Below, one piece after another: positions 20,371-48,299 of a stretch of 64,000 bases of DNA. The translations under genes and the position numbers were made by a program. Every line of letters starts with the position of its first letter. Position 1 is the stretch's first letter. The DNA lies in IMG/VR virus record IMGVR_UViG_3300011989_000257, positions 96,001-160,000 of that record; one strand, written 5' to 3'. The DNA is from a virus. Its lineage: Duplodnaviria > Caudoviricetes. The notes under the pieces were generated by a model. The model did not search any database, was not told the origin of the DNA, and was given only the letters and a program-made list of their open reading frames with translations.

Positions 20371-20372
20371 AT

Positions 20373-22293: not shown

Positions 22294-22322
22294 TAGATTT
22301 AAAACCCCCCAGATATGAAAAC

Positions 22323-22703: not shown

Positions 22704-22706
22704 AAA

Positions 22707-23456: not shown

Positions 23457-23537
23457 GATTAATTTCTTAAACCTTTTTTTATACCCAAAAATTTGGAATT
23501 TTAACTTTTTTTACATATCTTTGCAAAAAATTAAAAT

Positions 23538-28101: not shown

Positions 28102-28136
28102 TGCTTGGGCTATCCTTCTTTATTTATCTAATGTTA

Positions 28137-30203
28137 TTATTGTTCTACCTTTCTCCAATTATAGTAGCCTAAGTAGTAACTACTTGTGCTCATCCATACA
28201 CCATAACCACTACTGCCACTTGGCACTGTTAATGTACCACCTGTCTTAACATTATTGAATGTGAAATTTTCTATTGTAGGCGCTGTTGCAGCGTTGGATA
28301 TTATACTTGTAAGGCCTCTACAACTTTGGAAAGCACCACGGCCAATACTTGTAACACTATTACCTATTGTAACATTTGTAAGACTAGTACAATTATCGAA
28401 AGCGCCATTACCGATTGTTGTAACACTATCAGGGATATCTATACTTGTGAGATTAGTACAACCGCCTAAAGCAGACTCACCAATGCTTGTAACACTATCA
28501 GGTATATCTATACTTGTAAGGCCAGTACAACCATCGAAAGCATAATCGCCAATGCTTGTAATACTATCTAACATAATTGTCGTTTTGCAACCCTGAACTA
28601 ATGTATTCGTTTCCGTATTAATTATTGCATTGCAGTTGTTACGTGAATCATATACTGTATTATTGCTATCAACCGTTATGCTTGTAAGATTATAACAATA
28701 TCCGAAAGCCCAACCGCCAATACTTGTAAGACCACTACCAATGGTTATGCTTGTAAAACCACTACAAGATTGGAAAACTCCTTCACCAATACTTGTAACA
28801 CTATTTGGTATAACTATACTTGTAAGACCATTACAACCATTGAAAGCATAATTACCAATTCTTGTAACGCCACTACCTATCGTACAACTTGTAAGACCAC
28901 TACAAGATTGGAAAGCATTATTACCAATAGATGGAGTAGAATCACCAATAATTACTGTTTCAAGATTAGACCAAACACCTCTACCTGTGCCTTTAAAAGA
29001 AGTACTTAACTCACATTTTGCATTGTAATTTAGAACCTTTAATGCGTTAGTACCTACGAAAGCACTACCGCCAATACTTGTAACACCACTACCTATTGTA
29101 CAACTTGTAAGACTACTACAATAATAGAAAGCCCAACTTCCAATACTTGTAACACCACTTGGTATAACTATACTTGTAAGACTACTACAATAATAGAAAG
29201 CATAACTACCAATACTTGTAACACCACCACCTATTGTACAGCTTGTAAGACTACTACAACTACTGAAAGTACTATTACTAATACTTGTAACACCACTACC
29301 TATTGTACAACTTGTAAGACTACTACAACTATTGAAAGCACTATTACCAACACTTGTAACACTATCAGGTATATCTACACTTGTAAGACTACTACAATTT
29401 TGGAAAGCATAATTACCAACACTTGTAACACTATCAGGTATAACTATACTTGTAAGGCCAGTACAAGTACTGAAAGCATAATCTCCAATGCTTGTAACAC
29501 TGTTAGGTATGTCTATACTTGTAAGGCTAGTACAATTTTGGAAAGCATAATTACTAATACTTGTAACGCCACTCGGTATATCTATGCTTGTAAGACCACT
29601 ACAATTATAGAAAGCACTAATGCCAATACTTGTAACACCACTTGGAATGTCTATACTTGCAAGACTACTACAATTTGCGAAAACACCATTACCAATGCTT
29701 GTAACGCCATCAGGTATAGTTATACTTGTAAGACCTCTACAACTTTGGAAAGCAGCATCGCCGATACTTGTAACACTATCAGGGATAACTATGTTTGTAA
29801 GACCACTACAATATTGGAAAGTATAGTCGCTAATATTTGTTTGGTCGTTTAATGGAAATTCAACAGTATGTTCCCCACTTGATAATTGATACTTACCTTG
29901 TGCTGCATCAATGCTTTCAATGGATACTTTAGTTCCATCAATAATAGCCTTGGTAAAAATGTCAGCACCATAGTTTTCTATTGGATAACTACCACTTCCA
30001 TCGGAATAAAAGTATAATTGTGTTGGTTCAGAATCATCTTCAACATTATATTTAACAATAATAGCGGGTTTTTCAAACGTACTATAATAGACCTTATATA
30101 CATCATCATTACAAACACTTATGTTTGGCAAGATGAAGTTCTCAGTATCCGCACTGTATGCTGTATAATCAGCAGTTGTTTCAAATTCTTTTAAATATTT
30201 CAT
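28137..30203 (-). CDS. BspA/LRR_5 repeat protein with shared N-terminal module
   Basis: About 20 repeats of 23 aa (VTSIG..AF..C..LTSI.IP.S). Confidence 0.9.
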   Translation of the reverse strand: MKYLKEFETTADYTAYSADTENFILPNISVCNDDVYKVYYSTFEKPAIIVKYNVEDDSEPTQLYFYSDGSGSYPIENYGADIFTKAIIDGTKVSIESIDAAQGKYQLSSGEHTVEFPLNDQTNISDYTFQYCSGLTNIVIPDSVTSIGDAAFQSCRGLTSITIPDGVTSIGNGVFANCSSLASIDIPSGVTSIGISAFYNCSGLTSIDIPSGVTSISNYAFQNCTSLTSIDIPNSVTSIGDYAFSTCTGLTSIVIPDSVTSVGNYAFQNCSSLTSVDIPDSVTSVGNSAFNSCSSLTSCTIGSGVTSISNSTFSSCSSLTSCTIGGGVTSIGSYAFYYCSSLTSIVIPSGVTSIGSWAFYYCSSLTSCTIGSGVTSIGGSAFVGTNALKVLNYNAKCELSTSFKGTGRGVWSNLETVIIGDSTPSIGNNAFQSCSGLTSCTIGSGVTRIGNYAFNGCNGLTSIVIPNSVTSIGEGVFQSCSGFTSITIGSGLTSIGGWAFGYCYNLTSITVDSNNTVYDSRNNCNAIINTETNTLVQGCKTTIMLDSITSIGDYAFDGCTGLTSIDIPDSVTSIGESALGGCTNLTSIDIPDSVTTIGNGAFDNCTSLTNVTIGNSVTSIGRGAFQSCRGLTSIISNAATAPTIENFTFNNVKTGGTLTVPSGSSGYGVWMSTSSYYLGYYNWRKVEQ

Positions 30204-30220
30204 AATGTATATCTTTTCTA

Positions 30221-30228
30221 TATAAATA
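30221..30228 (-). promoter_or_regulatory. putative phage late promoter TATTTATA; representative of copies at 783, 25546, 32151, 36849, 37680, 42684, 45555, 50657, 58559, 60108 (minus) and 13977 (plus)
   Basis: Same 8-mer in the same orientation relative to the gene, mostly 15-35 nt before structural-type starts. Confidence 0.7.
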
Positions 30229-30294
30229 TCTTAACTGATATGAAAAATGCAGCCATCGCTGACTGCATTTTATAAATTATGATTTTAATTTCGC

Positions 30295-32115
30295 TTATGC
30301 AAAATTCAATGTCAAGCCATTTGCAACTGGGTCTGTGATTCCACCTGTCTTGTTAATGTTGTAAAGGTAGAATACCTGGTTCTTCTCACCGAAGTTATTT
30401 GCAGTTACCTTAACGCCATTGTACTTACAGTTCTTGAAGTTGAATTTCCAAGTCTGAATCTTTGACAAGTCACCGCCAAGTGCAACGTCAGTAGTGGCTG
30501 GCTGATAGATAACCAATCCTGCCCATCCCCAATCTGCTGCATCCTTATTTGGCGTGTTCTCATATGTCCAAGAAACGTTCTCGAAGTTAACTGTAACACC
30601 AGTAGCGTTCTTGTAGTTTGCAAGCCTCAATGCGTTTGAGTTGTTAACATTCAAGTTAAGGTTAACGTCTGAAATGTTGATTACAGCATCGTCATTTGGT
30701 CTGTAGATGTTAAATACATTGTGTGCTAGTGCAACGTCATTAACCTTCACGTTTGAAGCGTTAAATGAATCGGTACCAGTGCCAACTTCCTCAAATACGT
30801 TATATGGTTTTGCACCATCTGCAATAGTGATGTTTGAAACATCAACCTTTGGAGCATCTACCAAGAAATATCCGTTTGAAGAACCCTTGTCACCAGTTAC
30901 CTCAACACCATCAAGTGCTATTGACTCAACTGCTGCAATGTTAACTTGCTGTGCTGCCTCAACGTTTGCAATTTCAAGGTTTTTGAATGTCTTCTTTGCT
31001 GCAAGTGCATTCAATGCCTCTTCTCCACCGATGAACACGTCAGTATTCTGTGGGTCTGTGATTGCATTTATTTCCTCTGCTGTATTTGCAACCTCTGTCT
31101 CGTCATCGAAGAATCCGCAATCCAATACATTTGCGAACTTGATGCCATCCTTATCAACTGTTATTGGGTTCTTGATTGCTGGAGCTGAATATCCTGCTGC
31201 AACAGCCTTAACCTTGTTTGAAGCGATTGAAATACCATCACTTGCCTCAAGTCTTTCTTCGTCAGCCTTCTTGTCGATTGCTGCCTGTATACCCTCAACT
31301 CTGATACCATCCTCGTCTACAACAAGGAATCTCTCACTGTGGGTATTATATTTGATTGAAATAGTATTGTGAGTGTTATCAACATCAATACCATTACCAC
31401 CAGTATAGAAGTCTACAAGGTCTTTTGTATTGATATAGATTGTATCAGCATTTGCGAATTCAATCTTGATGGCAGTATCAGGCCCTTCTGGGTCTTCAGT
31501 GAACACGTCACCATCCCAAGTACCGTGAACAAGTGAGCCACCACTTACAACCATATCCTTTGGAATGTCAATCTTACCTATCTCTTCCTTGTCATCTCCC
31601 AAGCCTTGTGAAAGAATGTAGGTCTTGAGATAACCAGATGTAGGGGTTTGAGCAACTTCCAATGAAATCTTAAGTTTGTTCTCAAGGGCTGATTCAAGTT
31701 CGTTCAATGCATCAGCTACCGTGTGTTCTGCTGAAAAACCTTCGCCAAGTTTTGCATTAACCTCTTCTATTGCTTCGGTTAATGTCTTATCAGAAAAACC
31801 GCTACCAATTGTCTGATTGATTGCTGAAACGGCTTCTTTCAATGCATCAATATCTGCTGCACTTCCTTCAACGTCAAGGATGGTGTAGTATGACTGACCA
31901 CCACCATTGTCTTCCATCTCATTTGCGTTTGCATAGAAACCAACCAATGTGCGGATGATTGGCTCTCCACCCACAACAGGAACCAAATAACGTGCCAATT
32001 TTGCAACACCGTCATTTGTTGCTGATTGTGTCAAACCTTGAGCTGCGGTTTGCTTGTCTGGATAGACCTTACCATTACGTAAGAGTCCCAATGAATAAAG
32101 ATTTTTTACTGCCAT
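30295..32115 (-). CDS. virion fibre/structural protein with probable beta-helix C-terminus
   Basis: N-terminus resembles 42770-44548 (LARY...TLVG...LTIIDVEG.S.D..AL); shared LDCG[FY] motif. Confidence 0.65.
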   Translation of the reverse strand: MAVKNLYSLGLLRNGKVYPDKQTAAQGLTQSATNDGVAKLARYLVPVVGGEPIIRTLVGFYANANEMEDNGGGQSYYTILDVEGSAADIDALKEAVSAINQTIGSGFSDKTLTEAIEEVNAKLGEGFSAEHTVADALNELESALENKLKISLEVAQTPTSGYLKTYILSQGLGDDKEEIGKIDIPKDMVVSGGSLVHGTWDGDVFTEDPEGPDTAIKIEFANADTIYINTKDLVDFYTGGNGIDVDNTHNTISIKYNTHSERFLVVDEDGIRVEGIQAAIDKKADEERLEASDGISIASNKVKAVAAGYSAPAIKNPITVDKDGIKFANVLDCGFFDDETEVANTAEEINAITDPQNTDVFIGGEEALNALAAKKTFKNLEIANVEAAQQVNIAAVESIALDGVEVTGDKGSSNGYFLVDAPKVDVSNITIADGAKPYNVFEEVGTGTDSFNASNVKVNDVALAHNVFNIYRPNDDAVINISDVNLNLNVNNSNALRLANYKNATGVTVNFENVSWTYENTPNKDAADWGWAGLVIYQPATTDVALGGDLSKIQTWKFNFKNCKYNGVKVTANNFGEKNQVFYLYNINKTGGITDPVANGLTLNFA

Positions 32116-32173
32116 ATTTTTATATATTTAATTTGTCTTATTATCTAATATATAAATATTTTATATAGCATAA

Positions 32174-32212
32174 AAATTTGCCCCAGGCACAAGCCCAAGG
32201 CAAACTTTTTTT
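32174..32212 (-). terminator. intrinsic terminator after lectin-like gene
   Basis: Minus strand TTTGCCTTGGGC-TTGT-GCCTGGGGCAAA then T tract; G:U pairs fix the strand. Confidence 0.75.
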
Positions 32213-32247
32213 GCAATTTAATCTTGTTTGATTTTATTAAGATTAAT

Positions 32248-32973
32248 TTATTCACTAAGAACACCACGCACAGAGAAGCCGTTGGAGCGATAGGTGTTTT
32301 CCTGCCATTTCACACTTCCATCTCTGAATTCAAAGTAGTAGGCCCACTGAACATAATAGTTGAAAAGCGAACTCGACAAATATAAGTCCCAACTGCCTAC
32401 ACTGAGAACCCTACCATTGTAGCAGTAGCCACAAGCAGGAAAGAACAGTACCTTTGAACTGTCAGTCTTATCAGTACATACAAGACCCGCAACGCCACTT
32501 CCTTGATAATCAGTAGTCCACGCTGTATTCACAGCATTGCCCAATGCAACATACTCTTCAGTTGTTGGCATTCTCCAACTACCACCCCAATCAGCAGTCA
32601 CAGCATCATCTTCTGCATCCAATACAGTCTTACCATCAGTTGAGTTATACTTGGTCATTCCTGTATTACCAGGTGAACTTGTACCATTACCGTACTTATA
32701 GTCTGCCCAACCAAAGTACTTCTGTCCACTACCACTACCTACTTGTGAAGCAGTATAGCCTTGGGTGTCACCCCATTGGAAATAAAGTCCCGTGTCAGTA
32801 ATACCTGTTGCGCCGACGTTCATTGTTGCCCATTTAACACCGCCTATCTCAACATATTCGTGCGATGGGGTTTGTGGGTACAACTTAACGTCTCCAAGGT
32901 AGACCTTGCAATCGCTAGAGCCTACCTTGAATGCGCTAATATCTAGATTTCCTATTCTAATTCCGTCTGCCAT
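32248..32973 (-). CDS. C-type-lectin-like (FISUMP/DUF1566-like) receptor-binding protein A (start moved to ATG 32973)
   Basis: KWATMNVGA, YFQWG, DDAV...WGGSWRMPT, LFFPA.G, SVRGV; N-terminal IRIG..DI....VYLGDVKLYP fibre-docking-type motif. Confidence 0.8.
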   Translation of the reverse strand: MADGIRIGNLDISAFKVGSSDCKVYLGDVKLYPQTPSHEYVEIGGVKWATMNVGATGITDTGLYFQWGDTQGYTASQVGSGSGQKYFGWADYKYGNGTSSPGNTGMTKYNSTDGKTVLDAEDDAVTADWGGSWRMPTTEEYVALGNAVNTAWTTDYQGSGVAGLVCTDKTDSSKVLFFPACGYCYNGRVLSVGSWDLYLSSSLFNYYVQWAYYFEFRDGSVKWQENTYRSNGFSVRGVLSE

Positions 32974-32974
32974 A

Positions 32975-35900
32975 TTAATTAACAATTACGTATAATGTAT
33001 TAGGGTCTTTTGTTGTCAAAGCATCATATGCGGCTTGTGTAATCTTCTTGAGCTTAAGTCCATCAAGGTCTGACTTATCAGCCTTATTTGTGTTCAAATC
33101 ATTCAATGCATTTGATACAGTCAATTCATTCTCAGCTACAACCTTCGTTGCAATTGGGTCTGTTGAACCACTATTTGAAGGAGTGATTGCAGTTACCGTC
33201 TCAACCTTTCCGATGTTATCTTGCAACTTGATGTCAGTACCACCACTGGTTATGTAGATGTCACCATTCTGCCTAATCTCAAAGGCATTGTGCCTTGCAT
33301 TATATTCGCCATTACCAACACTAAATAATGTATTACCACTATCACCAAATGTAGTTGAAGCTCTATTGCTTGCGTTATACTGTCCACTTGCGTGTTCATA
33401 GGAATTGGTTGTTAACGTATTTTGGCCTTCTGTGTGAGAATAATCACCATTTGCTATTGTATACGCTCCTTCAGCGTGAGAAGACTGACCACTTGCTACT
33501 GTACCTTGTCCTTCAGCATGAGAATAATTACCATTTGCCTTTGCATTCCATCCTTCAGCGTGACTACTATTACTGCTTGCAGTAGTACTCTGTCCTTCAG
33601 CGTGAGAATAATAACCACTTGCTAATGCATACTTTCCTTCAGCATGAGAAGAGTGACCACTTGCTGTTGTACTCCATCCTTCTGCGTGTGAATACTCACC
33701 ATTTGCCTTTGTACCGCATCCTTCAGCGTGAGAAGAGCGGCCACTTGCTGTTGTCTCATAACCTTCAGCATGAGATGACTCACCACTCGCCGTTGTACTA
33801 TTTCCTTCAGCGTGTGAACGTAGTCCACTTGCTACTGTACTATTTCCTTCAGCGTGAGAATAATCGCCATTTGCTTTTGTATTATAGCCTTCTGCGTGAG
33901 ATGACTCACCACTTGCTACTGTACTATTTCCTTCAGCGTGAGAATAATCGTCACTTGCAGTTGTATAATTACCTTCAGCGTGAGATTTATTACCACTTGC
34001 AATTGTACTACTGCCCTCAGCGTGAGAATAGTTACCACTTGCAGTTGTGCTATCTCCTTCAGCGTGTGAAGTCATTCCATTTGCTTGCGTATTATTTCCT
34101 TCAGCGTGAGAAAATTGACCATTTGCCTTTGTACTCAATCCTTCAGTGTGAGAAGCAAAACCACTTGCTACTGTACTATTTCCTTCTGCGTGAGAAAAAT
34201 AGCCACTTGCTACTGTACTATTTCCTTCAGCGTGAGAAACAAATGATGTTGCACTAGTACTTAGTCCTTCTGTCACAGAATAGTCACCACTTGCTGTGCC
34301 ACTTGAACCCTTTAATATAACAGAGTTCAATCCTGTTCCACTTTCCCAAAGTTCAACTGATGGCGTATATGCTGATGCATCAAGTTTCTTTTCGTCAAGG
34401 TTGTTCAATGCAGCAGATATAATCCTCTCATTCTCAATGATTACCTCAGTGATTGAAGATGATGTAAATCCGCTTCCAACAAGGCTATCAATTGCTGCCT
34501 TATTATAATAGTTTGAAGCATCAAATATATCAGTCAATGGAATATTGATATCCTGCTTTCCAGCATCGGTGTTGAATGATATAACAAGACAAGTAACTTG
34601 GCTTCCACCGCTTGTTACATCCTTGATTTCAACATTTGACACCATTCCATCCTTGATGAAATCAGTCGCATCAATATGACAAATAGATGTTGCAGTATCT
34701 GTATCGTTCTTATAGAAATTAATCTTCTTGTCGTTTGAATCATATGCAGCATAGCCAATCTTATTGGCCCAAGATGCCTTATCAGCAGCAGTTACGTGTA
34801 TCTCCGTATTTGCAGTATGCGCACTTACAGTACCACTCAATGCAACAAATGCATTAGCCCATACAAGTTCATTTTCAGTTACTGCACTGTACACAGCCTT
34901 TGTAGATATAGGATTTGTACTAGCTGTATTACTGAAATCTTGGTCAATTTCTATATTCCCGCCAAGATTATCTTGAAGCAATATATCAGTGCCGCCACTT
35001 ACAATATAAATGTCACCATTCTGCCTAATCTCAAATGCGTTGTGCCTTGCATTATCAGCAGTACCGTTACCAACACTGAATAGCGTATTACCACTATCAC
35101 CAAATGTAGTAGTAGCACTGCTACTTACATTTAACTGTCCACTTGCGTGTTCATACATATTATTTGCTTGTGTTCCTGCGCCTTCAGTGTGAGAATAATT
35201 TCCATTTGCTTGTGTTCCTATACCTTCAGCGTGCGAATTACTACCGTTTGCTTGTGTTCCTGTACCTTCAGCGTGAGATGACTCACCACTTGCTGTTGTA
35301 TGATATCCTTCAGCGTGAGAATAACTACCGCTTGCCGTTGTATTACTGCCTTCAGCGTGAGAATCACTCCCACTTGCCATTGTATAGCTACCTTCAGCGT
35401 GAGAATATTGAGTATTTGCTGTTGTATAACCACCTTCAGCGTGAGATGACTCACCGCTTGCTATTGTACTATAACCTTCAGCGTGAGAACGTGAACCATT
35501 TGCAGTTGTATAATTACCTTCAGCGTGAGAAGAACTACCATTTGCTTTAGTATAATATCCTTCAGTGTGAGAATAATACCCACTTGCAGTTGTACTATAT
35601 CCTTCAGCGTGAGAAGACTGGCCACTTGCAGTTGTACTATATCCTTCAGCGTGCGAATAGTAACCTATTGATTTAGACCAAGAACCTTCAGCAACAGAAG
35701 ATGTTCCTCTTGCTGTGTTGTTTCCTCCTTTCAATACGACAGAATTCACACCACTTCCGCTAACCCAAAGTTCTACGCTTGGTGTGTATGCGCTTGCATC
35801 GAGTTTTCTTTCATCAAGGTCAACAAGTGCTGATGATACGATTTCTTCATTCTCAATGATTACGTCAGTAATGGATGAAGGTGAAAATCCGCTACCAATA

Positions 35901-36742: not shown

Positions 36743-36848
36743 AAATTTAATTCTTTTTTTTTAATAGCTTTTATTATTAGAAATATAGATTTCAAAAATT
36801 GGTAAGAATACCAGCTTGTTTAAAAATCTATTAAAATATATCTTTCTA

Positions 36849-36913
36849 TATAAATATCATAAGGAATATAAAAAAAGAGCAACCAACTTAATGATTGCCC
36901 TTGATATATTATT
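36849..36913. repeat. ~65-bp intergenic unit (terminator hairpin + TATTTATA), copy 1; copy 2 at 45555-45617
   Basis: TATAAATATCATAAGGAATATAAAAAA-GAGCAA...GATTGC.CTTGATATATTATT in both places. Confidence 0.85.
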
Positions 36914-37664: not shown

Positions 37665-37739
37665 AATTATTGTTTTCTATATAAATATCTTATGGGAAAG
37701 AAAAATGAGGAACTGTATTGAAACAATTCCTCATTAATA

Positions 37740-40700
37740 TTATTCAAATGTAAACGTATCACTAATATTGCCACTCTCAACGGTTACTACATCACCACTA
37801 CTGAATGTATGCCCTGTAAACGTAAGAATATTATCAGTTGCTGCCTTTGTTTCAACAGTTGTTCCGTTTACCTTTAATGCAAAATCAGTTGTTTGGTTTG
37901 TGTAACACTTGATAACCCTATCAGTCATCTTTGTATAGTTCTTCTGACATATATGCACGAACTTGTCTGTCTGATTCCACCAAGCCTTGTACAGATAGAA
38001 CGTATCCTTCTTGGTAACGTGGTCTCTCTCAACAAGACCCTTATTATTCAACCTTCTCAATTCATCGTCAATAGATGTGTTCTCACCATCAAGACATACT
38101 GTATATCCCTCATTTCTGTTTGCCACAGCAATGTCGAACAACTGCCATTGAGATGTGAACATCAACTGCGGATATTGCTTGATTGTCGCAATATGTCCTT
38201 CATGTAGCCACATCATATATTCAATATCGTGTCTTTCGTGATTGCCCCTTGTGGTTGTATTCATAAAGTCATCTGAGTGACAACGTTGTGTACCACCACA
38301 TCCATACTCAGAGTATGCCATTGGTTTTCCAACCCTGTTAATGGTGTTGTTAAGACGTGTGTTAATCTGTGACACAGGAGTATTTGAGTTTGGACTGTCA
38401 TACCATCCCACATATATATTACATCCGAACCAGTCAACATTAGATGGGTCATTATAGTATGCACTTGGACTTGTGCCAGGACTTTGTGCAAGCACATATC
38501 CTACCATTCTCTCAGAATCAAGTCTCTTGATTAATGCTGTGTATTCCTCTACCTTCTGCTTACCAAATGCCTTGTCATCAGTCGTTGTCTCATTGCTAAG
38601 ACCCCAGAAGAATATACAAGGGTGGTTATAGTGCTGATTGACCATATCTGTATACTGACCAGTTAAGTGTGTATAATAGTCTTCTGGCATTGTTGACTGT
38701 AACTTGTTAACACAAGGACCTTCAGTCTGCACAACTATACCCAATGCATCACATCTGTCATATACCTCCTTCGGATGAGGATAATGAGCTAAACGTAAGA
38801 AGTTAAGTCCAAGTTCTTGAATTGTTGCAAATGTATTGTTATAATCGGTTTCAGTCAATGCATTTGCCCTTCCTTCTATATCATCATGCATACAGCATCC
38901 TCTAAGAAGATATGGAGAACCATTGAGCAAGAATCCAGTATACGGATTTTCATCAGTGCCAACCTTTTCAGTATCATTGATTACATACTCATAGTATCTC
39001 AATCCATAAGGTCTTACAAACCTATGATACAAATCGTTTCCACCATATATCTCAAGTGTTACTGTGTATAGATATGGGTCTGGTTTACCATTCCATAGAT
39101 GAGGGTTTGCAATAACCTTTGTAAATGTCATTTCCTCACCAGTACTTGCACTTGTTGCAGAATAAATATTGGTATTACCATCATCAATCTTACAAACCAA
39201 CGTAGCACCAGTTGGAACACTTGTCATTATATTGACAGTTGCCTCTGCATCAGACACCGTTGACGTAATATGGAAGCCATCATAGCCATATTTCATTGCT
39301 GGAACATATGGGCTTGTAAGCAACCTTACATTACCAAGAGTCGCATTGAAGTTGAAGTCGCCAGCTGCTGGCGCAACATAGTTTCCTTCATTGTTCTTGA
39401 TTACAACCTTTACAGTATTTGAGCCACTATGTACATAATTTGATATGTCAGTGGTAAACGCTGCATAACCTCCCCAGTGCTTTTCCACAAGTGTATCATC
39501 AACATATATTGATGCTGAATGGTCAGCATGCTGGAACCACAAATACGTTGGTTGCGCTCCACTCAATGCAAAACTTGTCTCAAAGTTAAATGTTCCCTTT
39601 GCATAATTTGATGAATGACCGTCAATTGCATTGACTGAATATGGAGTGGTAATTTCGTTACCACCATAGTTCCACTTCTTTAAGTCTCTATTTGAATATT
39701 CAATAGGTACATCACTTACATATTGACAAGTTTGAGACACTGTACGACTTTCTTGACCATTCAATTCAGAATATGTTTGTATAATAGTGTCTGCTGTTAT
39801 TGTTATAGCAGTTGTATACGCACTATATTCTCCAGTATTGTTTAATCTATAATATATGTCAGCACCTTGAGTTTCACAAGTTAATGTTATCTCACTGAAT
39901 CCATCATATGTGATTGTAGGTGGAACTACTGGAACGTCATCATACACTAACCAATTTTTTGGAATACCGTTTGCTCCCCTAGTCCAAGTATCTACAGAAA
40001 CTCCGCTATCCTTTACGAATGTACCACTTGATGCAACGCCACTAGTCCAATTCTGCTTACAGTTGGTTGTGTTAAATCCATCAATTGCCATACATTTAAT
40101 ATAATTAAGGCTTGTACAGCCAGTAAACATATTACCATAACATTCAGCAACCAAATGTTCTGCAAGTAATTCTGGTGCTTCAACTATTGCACAATTTTCA
40201 AACATATACCAATAAACACCCTTTGCCAATGTTGTCGCTGGTAATTGTGGTGCTTTTGTCAAATATGTACACCAACTAAATAAAGCACGATAGCAATATT
40301 CAGTTAATGTTAATGCTGGTAGCACAAGGTTCTCAGCAGATTCTATATTTGTACGCTTAAATAATGAACAGAAATTGTATGTTCTTGTCATTGCTGTATT
40401 TCCAATGAAATTATCGCCATAAATGAGTGACATTACATTACCTTCAGCGACAAAATGAGCCGTTGAGCCTATGTCTGTAGACCCACTAGTATCTTTTCCG
40501 AATGAAGCATAATTTGATTTACTTCCAGCATATGTAGTATTAGTACCCTTAAATCTTATAACATCATCAGCTACAACATTTATTGCAGTAGGAGACGATG
40601 CTGCTGTTATAGAAGTCCATTCTCCACCGTTAAGGCTATACTCAATTGTTTTCGCATATCCGCTTCCAACAGATTTCCAACAAATTGTTCCTGCACTTGT

Positions 40701-42665
40701 TATTCTAAATGTCAAATAGTCATTTTCATAATGGTGTACTGGACTATATTCACAGTTTTGCGTTACAACAGAACTTACACGTCCTCTATATGATGAATAT
40801 GTTTCAACAAGAGTATCAGCAGTAATTACTATTGGAGTAGTATAAACTTGATAAGTTCCTTCTTGGTTTAATCTATAATTTATGGTTGCACTTGCTGTTG
40901 CACAAGCCAAAGATATTTCCTCTCCATTGAAGATAACAGTTGGGGCTACCAATACAACAGGGCTATAAGTACACGTTTCCTTTGCAGTATGTCCAACCTC
41001 AGTTCCAACTTGGGCATATGCCTCAACAACTGTTGTTGCTGTTATCTCAAACGAATCTGTATATGCACTATATGTTCCAGTTTCGTTCATTCTATAATAA
41101 AGTTCAGCATCTGTTGTTGCACAAGCAATTGACACATATTCTCCATCACAAGTGATAACTGGTGTTGCGATACCATTATCATATAAGCAGTTCTTACTTA
41201 CAGTATTACTTTTGTCACCATCAACTTCAGCATATGTTTGAACAAGTGTGTCAGCAGTAATCGCTATTGGCTCTGTATACTTAGCATATACGCCAACCTC
41301 ATTAAGCCTATAATAAATGTCAGCACCTACAGTTTCACAAGTTATTGTAACATACTGACCGTTACAATCTATTGTTGGCTCATTAACGTTGGTAAGCTTC
41401 TTAATTGAGAAACTGAATACATCAATATTTGAGAATCTGAATGGGTCTCCGTTTGCATCCAACGCACAGCCAACTGTTGTCTTAATATATTTCAAATCCT
41501 CAATGTCTGGGAATGTATTGTTTGATATATAATTGAACGCATTACCGATTAGTTCATCACAAGTAAACTTATTGGTACTAGCAGTTGGGTCATACACTAT
41601 GTGCAAATTATATTCATATATATTTGATGAACCATTATATTTGTTTGCATTTGTTGTTGTAATTGTTGTGTTCGCATTACTGCCAGTTGAGAACTGTGTA
41701 CCAAGTTGTATATACTTGTTTGCTTGAGATTGTCTTACTTGGAAGCCATACCAAGGCTCTGGTGCTGCCCTCTTTGAATTGATTATGTTATGATGATTAT
41801 CACTTTGATTTGGCGGCTGATTTGTAAAATCTATTGTAAAGTGAATATCCATCACAAAGCCTTGTGTAACATCAAGAGCATAGTATTCAGTATTAACACC
41901 ATCTGACCTAAACTCCTTCACTCCATCTGGATTTCCGCTTGTATCAATATCATATCCAGTGACAATTGTATTGCCGCTTTCATCATACTTGACATCTTGT
42001 GTGCTTACGTTGCCATCAGTATCTCCAGTCATGTTAGTACCATCAGTTGCATTACCATTGGCATCATAGTTTGTCTCATTACTTGTATATGAGCCATCTG
42101 AATTTGTTTCCTTGCTTTTCTCTGTGCTACCAATGACATTTCCTTCACTGTCTGTCACAACTGACTCTACAACCTCAGTTGAAGAACCGTCTTCATTCTC
42201 TGTCACTGTTGTGACAACTGTTGTGGTGTTTCCGCTTTCATCAGTTACAACCTCAGTTGTTGTTTCAGCAGAAGAACCACTTTGATATGTCAATGTTATT
42301 TCCTTCGTTGCAGTTTGACCATTATATGCCGCTTGTATTGTAACAGGAGATTCACTTGCTGTAGATGAAATTGTAATCTTACCGTTTGTTGCATCTATCG
42401 TTGCATAATCAGAACCACTTATAATGCTCCATACGGCAGATGATGTGACATCATTACCACCGCACATTGCGTTATATTTACAGGTTTCAGCAATTATTTC
42501 TGACGCTCCTTCTATAACCAAAGTGCATGTTGGAGATGGTTTACCAGCTGTTATATACGTCTTACTATCTCCAGAACAATATGATATATTTGGAACTACA
42601 GCACCTTCTTGTGCCATATATTCAATGTAATCATTTGTGTAATTAAATATCCTAAAATATTTCAT
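37740..42665 (-). CDS. 1641-aa multidomain protein: shared N-terminal module, Ig-like, Thr-rich region, Fn3/chitobiase-like repeats, LRR-like, C-terminal GH2 glycoside hydrolase
   Basis: PHLWNG.PDPYLY, FLLNG.PY.LRG..MHDD, LRLAHYPH, YNHP.IFFWGLSNE (acid/base), SEYG (nucleophile), NNKGLV.RD..TKKD.FY.YKA.W. Confidence 0.88.
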   Translation of the reverse strand: MKYFRIFNYTNDYIEYMAQEGAVVPNISYCSGDSKTYITAGKPSPTCTLVIEGASEIIAETCKYNAMCGGNDVTSSAVWSIISGSDYATIDATNGKITISSTASESPVTIQAAYNGQTATKEITLTYQSGSSAETTTEVVTDESGNTTTVVTTVTENEDGSSTEVVESVVTDSEGNVIGSTEKSKETNSDGSYTSNETNYDANGNATDGTNMTGDTDGNVSTQDVKYDESGNTIVTGYDIDTSGNPDGVKEFRSDGVNTEYYALDVTQGFVMDIHFTIDFTNQPPNQSDNHHNIINSKRAAPEPWYGFQVRQSQANKYIQLGTQFSTGSNANTTITTTNANKYNGSSNIYEYNLHIVYDPTASTNKFTCDELIGNAFNYISNNTFPDIEDLKYIKTTVGCALDANGDPFRFSNIDVFSFSIKKLTNVNEPTIDCNGQYVTITCETVGADIYYRLNEVGVYAKYTEPIAITADTLVQTYAEVDGDKSNTVSKNCLYDNGIATPVITCDGEYVSIACATTDAELYYRMNETGTYSAYTDSFEITATTVVEAYAQVGTEVGHTAKETCTYSPVVLVAPTVIFNGEEISLACATASATINYRLNQEGTYQVYTTPIVITADTLVETYSSYRGRVSSVVTQNCEYSPVHHYENDYLTFRITSAGTICWKSVGSGYAKTIEYSLNGGEWTSITAASSPTAINVVADDVIRFKGTNTTYAGSKSNYASFGKDTSGSTDIGSTAHFVAEGNVMSLIYGDNFIGNTAMTRTYNFCSLFKRTNIESAENLVLPALTLTEYCYRALFSWCTYLTKAPQLPATTLAKGVYWYMFENCAIVEAPELLAEHLVAECYGNMFTGCTSLNYIKCMAIDGFNTTNCKQNWTSGVASSGTFVKDSGVSVDTWTRGANGIPKNWLVYDDVPVVPPTITYDGFSEITLTCETQGADIYYRLNNTGEYSAYTTAITITADTIIQTYSELNGQESRTVSQTCQYVSDVPIEYSNRDLKKWNYGGNEITTPYSVNAIDGHSSNYAKGTFNFETSFALSGAQPTYLWFQHADHSASIYVDDTLVEKHWGGYAAFTTDISNYVHSGSNTVKVVIKNNEGNYVAPAAGDFNFNATLGNVRLLTSPYVPAMKYGYDGFHITSTVSDAEATVNIMTSVPTGATLVCKIDDGNTNIYSATSASTGEEMTFTKVIANPHLWNGKPDPYLYTVTLEIYGGNDLYHRFVRPYGLRYYEYVINDTEKVGTDENPYTGFLLNGSPYLLRGCCMHDDIEGRANALTETDYNNTFATIQELGLNFLRLAHYPHPKEVYDRCDALGIVVQTEGPCVNKLQSTMPEDYYTHLTGQYTDMVNQHYNHPCIFFWGLSNETTTDDKAFGKQKVEEYTALIKRLDSERMVGYVLAQSPGTSPSAYYNDPSNVDWFGCNIYVGWYDSPNSNTPVSQINTRLNNTINRVGKPMAYSEYGCGGTQRCHSDDFMNTTTRGNHERHDIEYMMWLHEGHIATIKQYPQLMFTSQWQLFDIAVANRNEGYTVCLDGENTSIDDELRRLNNKGLVERDHVTKKDTFYLYKAWWNQTDKFVHICQKNYTKMTDRVIKCYTNQTTDFALKVNGTTVETKAATDNILTFTGHTFSSGDVVTVESGNISDTFTFE

Positions 42666-42769
42666 ATATAAAATTCATTTCTCTATAAATATTTTCCCAA
42701 GAATAAAAAAATGGATAACCCATACAGATTATCCATTTTAATATAAAGAGTTATTTAAAGAAACTTAGA

Positions 42770-44548
42770 TTATGCATAGTAGCCACAATCTAATCCGTCG
42801 AATTTAAGCGTAATGCCACCATTATTGCTTGTTTCAACTATAATTGGGGTTTCTGCTGCGCCAGTAGAAGGAGCGCTAGATAATGTTAATGCAGCAACAT
42901 TATCAGTTACTGTGACGCCACTTCCATTAACTGTAATACCACTTATATATTCATCTTCAACCTTATCAAGTCTTGTATCAAGGTCATTCAATGCCTCAGC
43001 GGTAACTCTCTCGTTCTCAGTGATAACGGCATTTGTCTTCTCAAATGCAGTTGCAATTGAATCAGATGTAGCAATACCACTCAATGCACTAGCAGAATCA
43101 GCAGAGAATCCACTCATCTGAATCTTGTCAGCATCAGTTGCAAGGTCAATTTCCTTTGTACCATCAGCAACATTTCCTGGAGTTACCGTTACACTGCCAT
43201 TGGCTGATTTAACATCTGTAATTGTCTTTGCACTAAGTGCTGCAAGGTCATCAGCGTTTGCGATGTTATCTTCCTCAACATTTACAGTTGTGATAACACC
43301 ATCTGCCTCAACTACGTTAACTTTAATATGCTCTGTAGTACCACTTACATCTGCATCAAGGCCACTAACAGCAGTATTAATTGCGTCTTGTACACCAGCA
43401 AGTTTGAAGCCATCAGCACCAACAGTCAAGAATGACTCAGAAGTTTGGTCAACAACACCGTGAGCAATACCATCTGTTACAGTTACACCACTTGCGAACT
43501 CAGTTTCAAGAACAAGTTCTGACATATCAACATATGTGGTCTGAGTGTTACCGCTTGCATCAATGTATACATACTCAAGATTCTGAGCGTGTTCACCTTC
43601 TGTAATATAAGTAATGCTTACAATGTGGCTGTCCTTGTAAATCTGAACTGGAGCACCAATTGTATTGCCGCTAGCACCAATAAGACGATATTCTTCCTTA
43701 ACTATTTCAGAAAGACCAGTAGTTACCTTCTGAATTGTCAATAGTGAACTAACCGTTTTATTGTTCTGTGCATCAGCAGCAGAAATGTGAATTGTGTCCT
43801 CATCGCCAACATACTGCGTAAGTGCAGCAGAAGCAACACTAATCACACCAGTATCAGTATCGGCAACAAGAGTTTCGCCATCGATATTAACCTTGAAGTC
43901 AACACCATTACCTTCTACCAAATCACTGATTACAACAGTCTTATCAGAAGATTCGATAGTACCCTTAGTGACAGCAATTTCACCCTTGTCCTCAGATACA
44001 CTCATTACAACCTTCTTAGACTCAACCTCGCCAGTTACAGTTGGAAGGGTTGCTGTTGTTGCAGATACAATACCATCAGACTGTGTTACGTTTGTTACAT
44101 AAACACCTGTACCAGTTGTAACACCAGTGTAATCCATCTGACTCTTTAATTCATCAGCGTATCTCTTAGCACCTTCAACAGATGTCTCAGCACTTGTTGA
44201 ACTGCCATTACCACTTAAAGCAGTAAGTTGTGCTGTAACTGTCTCTGAAGCACCAGAGCCAATGCCGTTACCAAGTTTTGCATTAATCTCTTTTCTTAAT
44301 GCCTCAACGTCCTCGCTTCCACCTTCAACGTCAATGATTGTCAAGTGGTGTGTTTCACCTACCACTGCGACATATCCAACGATTGTCTTAACCTCACCAC
44401 TTACGGTGTAACGAGCAAGCAATGAAGTACCGTCTTCTGCTATACCCTTATTGTTCTCCAAAGCGGTACGTGCGGCTTCACGTGACTCAAAAGGATTTTG
44501 GTTTCTTAAGAACTTAACGTTCTCTACATTGTTTTTAATTATAGCCAT
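42770..44548 (-). CDS. virion fibre/structural protein
   Basis: V/T/S/G-rich; shares N-terminus with 30295-32115 and the ENE.V...AL.DLD neck motif with 32975-36742. Confidence 0.65.
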   Translation of the reverse strand: MAIIKNNVENVKFLRNQNPFESREAARTALENNKGIAEDGTSLLARYTVSGEVKTIVGYVAVVGETHHLTIIDVEGGSEDVEALRKEINAKLGNGIGSGASETVTAQLTALSGNGSSTSAETSVEGAKRYADELKSQMDYTGVTTGTGVYVTNVTQSDGIVSATTATLPTVTGEVESKKVVMSVSEDKGEIAVTKGTIESSDKTVVISDLVEGNGVDFKVNIDGETLVADTDTGVISVASAALTQYVGDEDTIHISAADAQNNKTVSSLLTIQKVTTGLSEIVKEEYRLIGASGNTIGAPVQIYKDSHIVSITYITEGEHAQNLEYVYIDASGNTQTTYVDMSELVLETEFASGVTVTDGIAHGVVDQTSESFLTVGADGFKLAGVQDAINTAVSGLDADVSGTTEHIKVNVVEADGVITTVNVEEDNIANADDLAALSAKTITDVKSANGSVTVTPGNVADGTKEIDLATDADKIQMSGFSADSASALSGIATSDSIATAFEKTNAVITENERVTAEALNDLDTRLDKVEDEYISGITVNGSGVTVTDNVAALTLSSAPSTGAAETPIIVETSNNGGITLKFDGLDCGYYA

Positions 44549-44629
44549 AATTTTTTAAATGTTTATTAATTTATTCTAATTTTATGTTAATAATAAATAT
44601 TTCATTGCTATACAAAAGTATAACATTTA

Positions 44630-45379
44630 TTATTGTTCTACCTTAGTCCAATTGTACTTGCCTAAGTAATAATCATCTGTACTCATCCATGTATCATAAC
44701 CACTGCTACCACTTGGTACTGTTAATGTACCACCTGTCTTAACATTTAGGAATGTATTACTTTGTATTGTAGGAGCAGTCATAGCATTAGACACTATATT
44801 TGTAAGGCTACCGTTACTATCGAAAGCGCTAGAGCCAATGCTTGTAACGCTATCAGGTATAGTTATACTTGTTAAATTATAACAGCCACTGAAAGCAGCC
44901 TCACCAATATTTGTAACACTATCAGGTATATCTATACTTATTAAACCACTACAACTAATGAAAACAGCTTTACTAATATTTATAACACCATTTGGTATAA
45001 TAACTTCTATCAAATTACCATTACTAAACACAGGCGTTTGATTACCTAATTTGGTTTTATCATATAATTCATACTTAACTGTATGAACACCTGTTGTGTC
45101 AAATGTATACTCAGTCACAAGCTCATCTAACATAACACCATCAATCTCCATTGACTTAAATATATTCTGCTCAAAGTTTGTTCTTAATGCTGTTGGATTG
45201 CTTGTATCAGTCACATTATACACCGCAATCAACTTTGGGTCAGAAGGTGGTTCTGGACTTGATGGGTTATATTCCACTCCATTTGTCTCATCAATCAATG
45301 ACACATTTGGTAACATTAAGCTACTCTGTGCTGCCTCATAAGCAGCCTGTGTCGCAAATTCTCTTAAATAAACTGCCAT
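44630..45379 (-). CDS. short BspA/LRR_5 protein with shared N-terminal module; paralogue of 28137-30203
   Basis: 3-4 LRRs; near-identical cap VKTGGTLTVPSGSSGY..WMST..YYLG.YNW.KVEQ. Confidence 0.85.
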   Translation of the reverse strand: MAVYLREFATQAAYEAAQSSLMLPNVSLIDETNGVEYNPSSPEPPSDPKLIAVYNVTDTSNPTALRTNFEQNIFKSMEIDGVMLDELVTEYTFDTTGVHTVKYELYDKTKLGNQTPVFSNGNLIEVIIPNGVINISKAVFISCSGLISIDIPDSVTNIGEAAFSGCYNLTSITIPDSVTSIGSSAFDSNGSLTNIVSNAMTAPTIQSNTFLNVKTGGTLTVPSGSSGYDTWMSTDDYYLGKYNWTKVEQ

Positions 45380-45434
45380 AATTTTCTTAAATATTTAATC
45401 TGTTATTATTATTTCATTTTATAATGTCCTCATA

Positions 45435-45533
45435 TCAAAGTGGAAATACTTGCACGCTTGGAACAACGAACTCTTCTGAAGCAATATATTCCAAATATTC
45501 CTCGTGATTATTAAACAATCTTAGATATTTCAT
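45435..45533 (-). pseudogene. orphan 32-aa N-terminal module without payload
   Basis: MKYLRLFNNHEEYLEYIASEEFVVPSVQVFPL*; TATTTATA 21 nt upstream. Confidence 0.65.
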
Positions 45534-45613
45534 ACTTTAACTTTTTTCTTTCTCTATAAATATCATAAGGAATATAAAAAAGAGCAATCATTAAGTTGAT
45601 TGCTCTTGATATA

Positions 45614-46372
45614 TTATTCACCAATAACACCACGAACGGGGTAGGCGATATAGCGGCTGCTGTAGACATTACAAGTCACGTAGCCACTGTTGTTGAAGTT
45701 CAAGGTGTAAGCGTTCTTAACATTATTGCTGTAAAGTGAACTTGACCGATAGTTGCCGATACTACCTACAAACTTAACACTACCATCATTACACCTGCCA
45801 GCAGCAGGGAAGAACAATGTCTTGGAAGAGTCAGTTTTATCTGTAAACATTATACCACTAACTGTTACATTATCAATAGTGATTGAAGTCCAAGCATTAG
45901 TTGTCGCATCAATCAATGATTGAAACTCATCTTTTGTTGGCATTCTCCAACTGCCACCCAAATTGGCTATTACAGCATCATCAACAGATTCAAGCACTGT
46001 CTTGCCATCACTTGAGTTATACTTGGTTATATCACTTTCAGAACCGTTTGCAAGTTCATAATCAGCCCAACTGAATACCCTGCAACCACCAGTCACTTGG
46101 TCAGCAGTGAAACCATTAACGCCACCCCAAGAAAAATACTGACCATAGTCAGTTATTGTCTTTGCACCAACGTTCTTTGTTGCCCACTTAACACCACCAA
46201 TCTTAACCCATTCATAAGTGGTTTCGACCTTCTCACTTATGCAAGGGTCAACCCAAGGTTTATAATGTACAGCATTATTATCCAAGGTCAATGATACATT
46301 AGGTAGAATCAACCCACTTTCCGCTGCTTCATAAGCGGCTTGTGTTTCAAATTGTTTTAAATAAATTGCCAT
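45614..46372 (-). CDS. C-type-lectin-like protein C with shared N-terminal module
   Basis: KWATKNVGA...WRMPT...NYRSSS...PVRGV. Confidence 0.8.
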   Translation of the reverse strand: MAIYLKQFETQAAYEAAESGLILPNVSLTLDNNAVHYKPWVDPCISEKVETTYEWVKIGGVKWATKNVGAKTITDYGQYFSWGGVNGFTADQVTGGCRVFSWADYELANGSESDITKYNSSDGKTVLESVDDAVIANLGGSWRMPTKDEFQSLIDATTNAWTSITIDNVTVSGIMFTDKTDSSKTLFFPAAGRCNDGSVKFVGSIGNYRSSSLYSNNVKNAYTLNFNNSGYVTCNVYSSRYIAYPVRGVIGE

Positions 46373-46488
46373 AATTCTTTATTTGATATTTTTAATAAAT
46401 TATTTTCATTATAGATAAATATTTCACGCATAAACAAAAATGGGATAACCAATCAAGATTATCCCATTTATTATAGATTATGCATTCA

Positions 46489-48264: not shown

Positions 48265-48299
48265 TGTGATATGATATTTTATAAAAATTATTATCTGAA

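What the first reader, a model, noticed from the sequence alone, without database searches (positions are those of the whole stretch)
28137..46372. Plug-and-play cassette system: one ~40-aa N-terminal module carries interchangeable LRR, lectin and glycosidase payloads
Seen: five ORFs with three unrelated body types begin with the same module, M.(I/K)Y(L/F)(K/R).F.....Y..(Y/A).......(L/V)PN(V/I)S.......(V/T).Y. They are 30203 (long BspA LRR), 37664 (lectin B), 42665 (1641-aa GH2), 45379 (short LRR) and 46372 (lectin C). A sixth copy (45533) has no payload. Most sit in their own promoter-gene-terminator unit between fibre genes. None has a signal peptide. Inference: the module is a dockerin-like anchor that plugs varied glycan-binding or glycan-cutting domains onto a common virion socket, giving a swappable surface toolkit. 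I do not recognise it as a named domain.
Basis: partly seen in the sequence, partly recalled or inferred. Interest (0 to 1): 0.9.

Follow-up and report, generated by a model that had tools for sequence, protein, structure and literature searches.

The report
Shared N-terminal tag on phage adhesins
A 40-residue N-terminal module that no domain database knows heads seven otherwise unrelated sugar-binding or sugar-cutting proteins of a 412-kb gut megaphage and about 1,800 protein clusters in metagenomes. Payloads are swapped behind it at fixed genome sites, so it most likely fixes them to the virion as other phage N-terminal anchors do, but no binding partner has been shown.

Summary
A seventh lies outside the window (genome 231447).

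- **Significance.** A profile of the six finds the untrained seventh at E 4e-17, and nothing else in 412 kb scores above 11 bits.
- **Spread.** The module is always N-terminal. It matches 1,813 clusters among 1.84 billion representative proteins. The 13 IMG/VR loci recovered all lie in relatives of this megaphage.
- **Novelty of the sequence.** Pfam, PHROGs, PDB sequences and GenBank phages gave no hit.
- **Structure.** AlphaFold2 predicts a separate beta-alpha-beta-beta mini-domain joined to the payload by a linker that is often Pro-rich.
- **Payloads.** BspA-type LRR dominates. Others are Lcl_C/FISUMP-like lectin folds (below family thresholds), one GH2 enzyme and Ig-like domains.
- **Cassette exchange.** Relatives carry an LRR where this genome has a lectin. 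Homology breaks about 39-43 codons into the gene and resumes just after the stop codon.
- **Expression.** Each unit has a hairpin terminator and the ATATTTAT motif that also precedes the capsid, sheath and portal genes.

Genetic "plug-and-play" is shown. Physical docking onto the virion is inferred (about 0.55) and no socket was identified. This is a new family within a known kind, the conserved N-terminal anchors of phage receptor-binding proteins.

The parts
28137..30203 (-). 688-aa protein: module (30078-30203), then a BspA-type LRR array
   Evidence: ORF. LRR_5 E 3.5e-165. Module profile hit E 3.1e-19.
36912..37664 (-). 250-aa protein ('lectin B'): module (37539-37664), linker, Lcl_C/FISUMP-like domain
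   Evidence: Lcl_C 22.5 bits, below cut-off. Module E 5.8e-22. Relatives L016 and L011 carry an LRR at this locus.
37740..42665 (-). 1641-aa protein: module (42540-42665), Ig-like/CHB_HEX_C spacers, GH2 glycosidase at residues 1004-1630
   Evidence: Glyco_hydro_2_C E 7.5e-24. LacZ4-type model E 1.7e-80. Module E 2.7e-19 and E 2.2e-8 with the outside profile.
44630..45379 (-). 249-aa protein: module (45254-45379), Pro-rich linker, short BspA LRR
   Evidence: LRR_5 E 9.1e-23. Module E 5.4e-17. No ATATTTAT motif of its own.
45438..45533 (-). 32-codon ORF: a module truncated after the VVPSV stretch, with its own ATATTTAT motif (45563-45556). Read as a remnant of an earlier cassette.
   Evidence: Sequence read. 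Module E 1.4e-17. The 34 nt before the short LRR start and its first 23 nt match the 5' end of a relative's LRR cassette.
45614..46372 (-). 252-aa protein ('lectin C'): module (46247-46372), linker 38-54, Lcl_C/FISUMP-like domain 55-252
   Evidence: AlphaFold2 model with pLDDT 92; module strands 5-8, 26-29, 34-37 and helix 11-18.
30222..30229 (-). ATATTTAT late-type promoter motif before the long LRR. Equivalent motifs lie at 37688-37681, 42692-42685, 45563-45556 and 46422-46415.
   Evidence: The same motif precedes the tail sheath, major head, portal and tape-measure-like genes.
37704..37735 (-). Hairpin terminator between GH2 and lectin B. Others lie at 46469-46438, 45607-45580, 42739-42708, 36902-36875 and 28120-28084.
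   Evidence: The same hairpin plus promoter joint precedes module genes in relatives L010, L011, L012, L014, L016, L019 and L023.
32248..32973 (-). Lectin A (241 aa from the ATG at 32973): the same lectin-like body without the module. Its ATG lies 1 nt after the stop codon of the 1255-aa fibre gene.
   Evidence: Serves as a contrast case, apparently coupled to a fibre gene rather than tagged.
30295..50624 (-). Fibre-like genes interleaved with the module genes: 30295-32115, 32975-36742, 42770-44548, 46489-48264, 48300-50624
   Evidence: YadA_head and Phage_tail_C on the 1255-aa protein, PTR-like repeats on the 591-aa protein. The 606-aa and 592-aa proteins share an N-terminal 140 aa.

Best explanation
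The ~40-residue module is a self-folding N-terminal adaptor. A clade of ~400-kb gut megaphages, probably infecting Bacteroidota, uses it to mount accessory glycan-binding or glycan-cutting proteins on the virion, most likely on the tail-fibre apparatus. The payloads are mostly BspA-type LRR, with some Lcl_C/FISUMP-like lectin folds, Ig-like domains and one GH2 enzyme.

Each gene is a small late transcription unit: hairpin terminator, ATATTTAT promoter motif, module, flexible linker, payload, terminator. The conserved 5' joint plus the module on one side, and the terminator on the other, give recombination a footing. Payloads are therefore exchanged, duplicated or lost without disturbing the attachment end.

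Shown: the module, its independence from the payloads, protein-level conservation, the late-type promoter context, restriction to phage DNA, and payload swaps at fixed loci.

Inferred: physical attachment to the virion, the site of attachment, and the oligomeric state.
For: 1. Seven copies, all beginning at Met1. Profile statistics are far from chance.
2. 1,813 clusters among 1.84 billion representatives. The module sits at residues 1-42 in nearly all of the best 150.
3. AlphaFold2 gives the same beta-alpha-beta-beta unit with and without a payload, followed by a lower-confidence linker. Linkers are often Pro/Thr-rich.
4. Near-identical module variants (80-100% identity) are fused to Lcl_C, LRR_5 or unassigned bodies. 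Payload families in the best 150: LRR_5 65, Lcl_C 7, Big_2 3, and SpaA, Hexapep and SusF_SusE once each.
5. Swaps at syntenic sites:
   - Against L016, homology runs from the GH2 3' end through the intergenic region and 116 nt into lectin B. It stops there and resumes 3 nt after the stop codon. L016 and L011 hold an LRR at that place.
   - L013 has one LRR where this genome has lectin C, the truncated module and the short LRR.
6. Conservation acts on the protein. At invariant F, P, S and L positions the codons differ (for example Ser AGT/TCA/TCT). 528 of 1,320 identical-residue codon pairs are synonymous changes.
7. The genes lie among fibre-like genes. They carry the ATATTTAT motif that also precedes the sheath, major head, portal and tape-measure-like genes. 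10 of 14 related loci have the motif too. The Bacteroidota-type promoters of the window (16 found, 3.2 expected) are elsewhere.
8. No signal peptide.
9. In a pattern scan of 185,579 species genomes, only two short MAG contigs and one weak hit were found. All 13 IMG/VR loci are relatives of this phage.
10. Precedent: the first 29 residues of RBP2 in Klebsiella phage KP32 are a transferable docking peptide required for incorporation into the virion (PMC13352976).
Against: - No partner protein was identified and no virion proteome or structure exists for any phage carrying the module.
- The seventh copy here, and several copies in relatives, lie outside the fibre block among non-structural genes. 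One sits next to an IS1595-type transposase fragment. Gene position therefore supports virion association only for some copies.
- The ATATTTAT motif is short and AT-rich. It has 170 genome-wide hits, of which 59 lie within 80 nt upstream of a gene on the same strand. Late timing is inferred, not measured.
- LRR and lectin-like bodies on flexible linkers are unlike classical trimeric fibres or tailspikes.
- The best fold matches are weak and are to trimerisation units, not to known docking domains.
Confidence: 0.55

Rival explanations
1. The module is mainly an oligomerisation unit, for example a trimeriser. It bundles three payloads for avidity. Attachment to the virion, if any, is secondary or runs through another part of the protein.
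For: The best structural matches of the module-only model are the collagen XVIII and XV trimerisation domains: Z 3.3-4.0, rmsd 1.8-2.0 A over 36-39 of about 41 ordered residues. Weaker rows are N-terminal segments of trimeric phage enzymes: HylP2 residues 7-46, a K1 capsule lyase residues 10-49, and Geobacillus virus E2 ORF18 residues 3-47 (Z 2.3-2.4).
Against: All Z scores are below the level the tool calls meaningful. There is no sequence relation to any such family. This reading does not exclude docking, since N-terminal trimeric caps of phage fibres commonly do both (own knowledge).
Confidence: 0.15
2. The proteins are not virion parts. They are soluble late products released at lysis and act on host or mucosal glycans. 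The module serves some other common need, such as folding, stability or binding a phage chaperone or regulator.
For: Some copies lie far from structural genes. The payloads resemble bacterial surface adhesins and an exo-glycosidase rather than classical fibres. No partner was found.
Against: Five of the six full-length copies here are interleaved with fibre genes. The late-type promoter motif is shared with capsid and tail genes. A strictly N-terminal, strongly conserved tag followed by a flexible linker is the usual layout of an attachment module. A module-less lectin paralogue starts 1 nt after a fibre gene's stop codon, which ties this body type to fibres.
Confidence: 0.15
3. The module is a capsid-targeting or propeptide signal that loads the proteins inside the head. 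This would resemble N-terminal targeting sequences of T4 internal proteins or the propeptides of jumbo phages (own knowledge).
For: It is strictly N-terminal. The first residues superficially recall the T4 targeting sequence (recall only, not tested).
Against: Glycan-binding and glycan-cutting payloads make sense outside the particle, not inside it. The major head protein of this genome shares a different N-terminal ~60 residues with a 212-aa protein, which is a better candidate for a head-targeting tag. No conserved cleavage motif follows the module.
Confidence: 0.05
4. The conserved stretch is only a DNA-level recombination handle, part of the mobile cassette joint, with no function as protein.
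For: The upstream hairpin and promoter joint is conserved at the DNA level across cassettes. Recombination breakpoints fall at the module edge.
Against: Invariant residues are encoded by different codons, including AGT versus TCA/TCT for Ser. About 40% of identical-residue codon pairs differ. The module folds consistently in silico. Module identity among the copies in this genome falls as low as 18-23% while the key residues stay in place.
Confidence: 0.05

Closest known systems
Conserved N-terminal docking peptide of the secondary receptor-binding protein (RBP2) in Klebsiella podophages KP32, K11 and KP34 (PMC13352976)
   Same: A short, strictly N-terminal conserved segment (29 aa there, about 40 here) sits on proteins whose distal domains differ. 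There it is transferable to a foreign enzymatic domain and required for incorporation into the virion.
   Different: No sequence relation was tested or expected. There the partner is known (the T4 gp10-like branching domain of RBP1) and binding has been shown experimentally. Here no partner is known, the payloads are LRR, lectin-like or GH2 rather than beta-helix depolymerases, and there are up to seven tagged proteins per genome.
Conserved N-terminal anchor or adapter domains of tail fibres and tailspikes (T7-like gp17, Przondovirus tailspikes, Ackermannviridae TSP1-4; PMC12692247, PMC11721090)
   Same: Constant N-terminus with a variable receptor-binding C-terminus. Horizontal exchange has its breakpoint at the domain border.
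   Different: Those anchors are 100-300 aa long and part of rigid trimers. This module is about 40 aa and is followed by a flexible linker.
Bordetella phage BPP-1 Mtd (Mtd_N, PF18454, plus a C-type-lectin fold)
   Same: A small N-terminal unit is followed by a lectin-fold receptor binder (own knowledge). Mtd (1yu4) and several Mtd_N-containing viral proteins appear among the weak fold hits.
   Different: The Mtd_N profile finds nothing in this genome at E <= 10. The genome has no reverse transcriptase, so there is no diversity-generating system.
Collagen XV/XVIII (multiplexin) trimerisation domain (PDB 3n3f, 3hon, 9bnb)
   Same: Best structural superposition of the module-only model: Z 3.3-4.0, rmsd 1.8-2.0 A over 36-39 residues.
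   Different: 6-8% identity and an animal extracellular matrix context. The scores are below the tool's level of trust, so this is a resemblance of shape only.
Cohesin-dockerin system of cellulosomes
   Same: The idea of one small address domain carrying many different glycan-active payloads.
   Different: Dockerins are about 70-aa duplicated Ca-binding segments, usually C-terminal, on secreted proteins (own knowledge). The module has none of these features and no Pfam hit.

Membership tests
Phage_tail_C (PF24243, 'phage tail tip domain') | Match to the family profile | tested here: not met
   In this genome the profile finds only the C-terminus of the 1255-aa fibre (53.5 bits) and none of the modules at E <= 10. 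hhalign of the module alignment against 22 such C-termini gives probability 0.8% over 8 columns.
Mtd_N (PF18454) | Match to the family profile | tested here: not met
   No match in the genome at E <= 10.
Mtd_N / N-terminal caps of trimeric phage fibres | Shared fold | tested here: inconclusive
   Only weak rows: HylP2 residues 7-46 at Z 2.3 and Mtd_N-containing viral models at Foldseek E 1.7-2.3.
Dockerin (type I/II) | Duplicated Ca-binding loop-helix segments and a match to the dockerin profile | tested here: not met
   No Pfam family matches any of the module segments at E <= 10. The predicted fold is beta-alpha-beta-beta.
Branched RBP system with an N-terminal docking peptide (KP32 type) | Short conserved N-terminal segment on proteins with differing distal domains | tested here: met
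Branched RBP system with an N-terminal docking peptide (KP32 type) | An identified partner domain (T4 gp10-like branching domain) and demonstrated binding | not tested
   No partner was sought by profile. The fibre-like proteins have no Pfam or PDB match that would name one.
BspA-type LRR (PF13306) payload | Profile match above the curated cut-off | tested here: met
   541.3, 81.0 and 190.4 bits against a cut-off of 27.7.
Glycoside hydrolase family 2 payload | Sugar-binding, Ig-like and TIM-barrel domains in order, above cut-offs | tested here: met
   29.0, 30.7 and 84.8 bits against cut-offs of 28, 23 and 21. Catalytic residues were not checked residue by residue.
Lcl_C (PF07603) / FISUMP (TIGR02145) payload | Profile match above the curated cut-off | tested here: inconclusive
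   Lcl_C scores 22.5-31.7 bits against a cut-off of 34.9. TIGR02145 scores 16.8-27.8 against 41.65. The best Foldseek row is the Lcl C-terminal domain, but only at E 0.09.

The most novel reading that the evidence does not exclude
The module is one of several N-terminal 'address tags' by which this megaphage clade arms its particle with a changeable set of host-like surface proteins and enzymes. A second tag is shared by two ~720-aa proteins and a 547-aa protein. A third is shared by four small proteins. This would be a display system closer to a cellulosome or to capsid decoration than to classical trimeric fibres. Flexible, monomer-type LRR, lectin and glycosidase heads would hang from a common socket, and a dedicated terminator-promoter-tag cassette would drive their exchange.
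Probability: 0.3. Interest if true: 0.75.

Novelty: new member of a known kind. Interest (0 to 1): 0.55.

Why it matters
Huge gut phages remain uncultured and how they recognise hosts or mucosal glycans is unknown. This result supplies a large protein family that no database describes (about 1,800 clusters at 50% identity). The family marks a set of likely virion-exposed glycan binders and one glycosidase. The work also shows how they are exchanged: a terminator-promoter-tag joint with breakpoints at the tag border.

If the tag docks onto the particle, it could be tried as a short, transferable handle for displaying proteins on such phages. Its partner would locate the attachment platform. The profile can also be used now to flag contigs of this phage clade and to list its adhesin repertoire in metagenomes.

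Tried and rejected
1. **Homology to Phage_tail_C.** The helix segment of the module resembles the C-terminal motif of the 1255-aa fibre (TQAAY-D/E-A, then PN). The family profile does not hit the modules and hhalign gives 0.8% probability over 8 columns. Rejected.
2. **Mtd_N.** No profile hit.
3. **PF26707 (DUF8237).** It is listed for lectin C in a precomputed table. It is only a 'faint' hit on that one protein, is absent from the other module proteins, and is not in the local library. It is not the module.
4. **Self-association of the module.** Complex prediction with three copies returned no verdict: score 0.01 against a mark of 0.42, controls not run. This is no evidence either way.
5. **Foldseek searches.** The full lectin C model against the PDB, and the module model against BFVD, gave nothing at E <= 0.001.
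6. **tblastn of the module against 50,697 GenBank phage records.** No match. megablast of the 22-kb region also found none.
7. **Search for long fused forms.** Only one hit, a 658-aa LRR.
8. **Single-linkage clustering of payloads.** Multi-domain proteins bridge the LRR and lectin groups, so cluster counts (18-20) are only rough.
9. **DGR reading of the lectins.** There is no reverse transcriptase in the 412-kb genome.
10. **Technical failures.**
    - The search for related loci failed with the divergent alignment and was repeated with a closer one.
    - No tRNA genes in the window.
Full report
**Where the window lies.** The window is bases 96001-160000 of a 412,514-bp IMG/VR virus record that CheckV rates complete. 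A near-identical contig comes from a wolf-gut assembly (ENA ERZ28660729). The genome encodes a tail sheath, a major head protein, a portal and a tape-measure-like protein, so it is a very large contractile-tailed phage. Bacteroidota-type promoters (TTTG, 18-21 nt, TAnnTTTG; this consensus is from my own knowledge) occur 16 times in the window against 3.2 expected. Most lie before + strand non-structural genes at 5.6-23.5 kb. This points to a Bacteroidota host.

**The observation.** Five long ORFs and one 32-codon ORF on the - strand begin with the same ~40 residues. A profile of the six finds a seventh copy outside the window (genome 231447-232460, a 337-aa LRR protein) at 60.9 bits, E 3.8e-17. 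Nothing else in all six frames of the genome exceeds 10.6 bits. A profile built only from 150 proteins of other samples finds all seven at E 1.7e-22 to 2.2e-8, with the next hit at E 0.05. The similarity is therefore far beyond chance.

The bodies fall into three types.
- Three proteins (688, 249 and 337 aa) carry BspA-type LRR.
- The 1641-aa protein ends in a full GH2 unit.
- The two 250-aa proteins carry a domain that scores just under the Lcl_C and FISUMP thresholds.

The module itself has no match in Pfam (E <= 10), PHROGs (E <= 1), the sequences of all PDB chains (E <= 10) or 50,697 GenBank phage records.

**How widespread it is.** A profile search of 1.84 billion representative proteins gives 1,813 clusters at E <= 0.001 and 213 at E <= 1e-10. 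The module lies at residues 1-42 in nearly all of the best 150. The few exceptions look like start codons called too far upstream. The consensus is M-x-x-YLKKF-x-TH-x-EY-x-x-YI, a variable 5-7 residues, ILPNVS-x-C, a short turn, then VHYNP, usually followed by a Pro/Thr/Ser-rich stretch.

Among those 150, 65 carry LRR_5, 7 Lcl_C and 3 Big_2, with single cases of SpaA, Hexapep and SusF_SusE. Many have no assigned family or are fragments. Module variants 80-100% identical to that of lectin C are fused to Lcl_C, to LRR_5 or to unassigned bodies. The tag and the payload therefore assort independently.

All 13 IMG/VR loci recovered belong to relatives of this phage, with neighbouring genes 35-90% identical. 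A pattern scan of one genome for each of 185,579 prokaryote species found only two contigs of 2.5 and 4.5 kb in MAGs and one weak hit. That scan finds only close variants, so the absence from cells is strong but not absolute. Relatives carry 1-5 copies per record, and a complete 412,753-bp relative has three.

**Structure.** AlphaFold2 on lectin C with 63 homologues (pLDDT 92) gives three parts:
- the module, with a strand at 5-8, a helix at 11-18 and strands at 26-29 and 34-37 (pLDDT 70-83);
- a linker at 38-54;
- a confident globular domain from residue 55.

The module alone, with 131 sequences, folds into the same elements (pLDDT 72). It is therefore a separate mini-domain and not part of a payload fold.

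Fold searches give nothing strong. The best rows are the collagen XVIII and XV trimerisation domains (Z 3.3-4.0, rmsd 1.8-2.0 A over 36-39 residues). Below them are N-terminal segments of trimeric phage enzymes at Z 2.3-2.4. These are leads only.

**Gene organisation.** Between the genes lie hairpin terminators. An ATATTTAT motif lies 24-50 nt upstream of the long LRR, lectin B, GH2, lectin C, the truncated ORF and the seventh copy. Genome-wide, 59 of 170 occurrences lie within 80 nt upstream of a same-strand gene. Those genes include the sheath, major head, portal and tape-measure-like genes and the fibre-like genes. I read it as the promoter of the structural (late) class, which is an inference.

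In 10 of 14 related loci the motif precedes the module gene. In seven of them, as before lectin B and the seventh copy here, the same hairpin sequence lies just upstream. The portable unit is thus terminator, promoter, module, payload, terminator.

**Payload exchange.** Compared with relative L016, homology (81%) runs from the 3' part of GH2 through the intergenic region and 116 nt (39 codons) into lectin B. It stops there and resumes (84%) 3 nt after the lectin B stop codon, continuing into the next fibre gene. L016 has a 465-aa LRR protein in that slot and L011 a 468-aa one.

Between the 591-aa and 592-aa fibre genes, relative L013 has a single LRR gene. This genome has lectin C, the 32-codon ORF and the short LRR there. 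The 34 nt before the short LRR start and its first 23 nt match the 5' end of the L013 cassette. The 32-codon ORF therefore looks like the stump of an earlier cassette whose payload was displaced.

**Protein or DNA constraint.** At invariant positions the codons vary: F is TTT or TTC, P is CCA, CCT or CCC, and S is AGT, TCA or TCT. 528 of 1,320 identical-residue codon pairs are synonymous differences. Selection therefore acts on the protein.

**Interpretation.** The layout is a strictly N-terminal, conserved, self-folding tag followed by a flexible linker and a variable distal domain. The genes lie among fibre genes, share a promoter motif with them, have no export signal and are restricted to phage DNA. 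This is the pattern of N-terminal anchors of phage receptor-binding proteins.

The nearest documented case is the 29-residue docking peptide of RBP2 in Klebsiella phage KP32. It is required for incorporation and can carry a foreign enzyme onto the virion (PMC13352976). I therefore rate virion attachment as the most likely function (0.55). Where it attaches (fibres, baseplate or capsid) is open.

Lectin A gives some indirect support. It has the same body without the module, and its ATG lies 1 nt after the stop codon of the 1255-aa fibre gene. That arrangement resembles a translationally coupled fibre partner.

Several points count against the reading:
- no partner is known;
- some copies lie among non-structural genes;
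- the promoter class is inferred;
- the payloads are unlike classical trimeric fibres.

The rivals are a pure oligomerisation unit, soluble lysis-released factors, a head-targeting signal and a mere recombination handle. They are listed with their evidence in the rival explanations.

**Comparison and novelty.** The genetic principle, a constant N-terminal end with swappable distal ends, is well known. The module is a new family. It is unusually short and unusually widespread within one uncultured clade, and it carries unusual payloads. It fails the tests for Phage_tail_C, Mtd_N and dockerin. I class it as a new member of a known kind.

By sequence look-up, nothing like it had been noted on other DNA in this scan.

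Noticed in passing
window 5636-23523 (+ strand mostly), against 28000-50700 (- strand): There are two promoter classes. Bacteroidota-type TTTG-N18-21-TAnnTTTG sites (16 found, 3.2 expected) precede non-structural genes. ATATTTAT precedes the capsid, sheath, portal, fibre and module genes.
   Followed up: partly
window 72-761 (-); genome 81424-81918, 390063-390539, 393888-394412: Four small proteins (158-229 aa) share a different N-terminal ~25 residues (IRLTESDLH...). Their bodies are unrelated by BLAST. Two of them carry the ATATTTAT motif.
   Followed up: partly
genome 325943-328159, 334314-336473, 336490-338133 (outside the window): Three proteins (738, 719 and 547 aa) share a third N-terminal module (MG-x-W-x-I-x-P...). 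One pair has unrelated bodies. Earlier notes call them BACON adhesins and a PAP2 phosphatase, which I did not check.
   Followed up: partly
genome 75574-77604 and 39156-39794 (outside the window): The major head protein shares its first ~60 residues with a 212-aa protein whose body is unrelated. This may be a head-targeting or scaffold-like segment.
   Followed up: no
window 30295-32115 and 42770-44548 (-): The 606-aa and 592-aa fibre-like proteins share an N-terminal ~140 residues (31% identity, E 2e-10) and differ downstream. This is a second constant-N, variable-C pair.
   Followed up: partly
window 32971-32977: The ATG of lectin A (no module) lies 1 nt after the TAA of the 1255-aa fibre gene, which ends in a Phage_tail_C motif. 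Translation is probably coupled.
   Followed up: partly
C-termini of window 28137-30203, window 44630-45379 and L004:1501-2514: The three LRR proteins also share a conserved C-terminal ~50 residues (…VKTGGTLTVPSGSSGY…KVEQ).
   Followed up: no
L004:2562-3056 (genome about 232.5 kb): A fragment of an IS1595/ISXO2-type transposase (E 9e-29, profile positions 43-153 only) lies next to the seventh module gene.
   Followed up: partly
whole genome: No reverse transcriptase (RVT_1) was found.
   Followed up: yes
window 26674-28101 (+): A DUF4422 / GT8-like glycosyltransferase gene converges on the long LRR gene. The two share a terminator region at 28084-28120.
   Followed up: no
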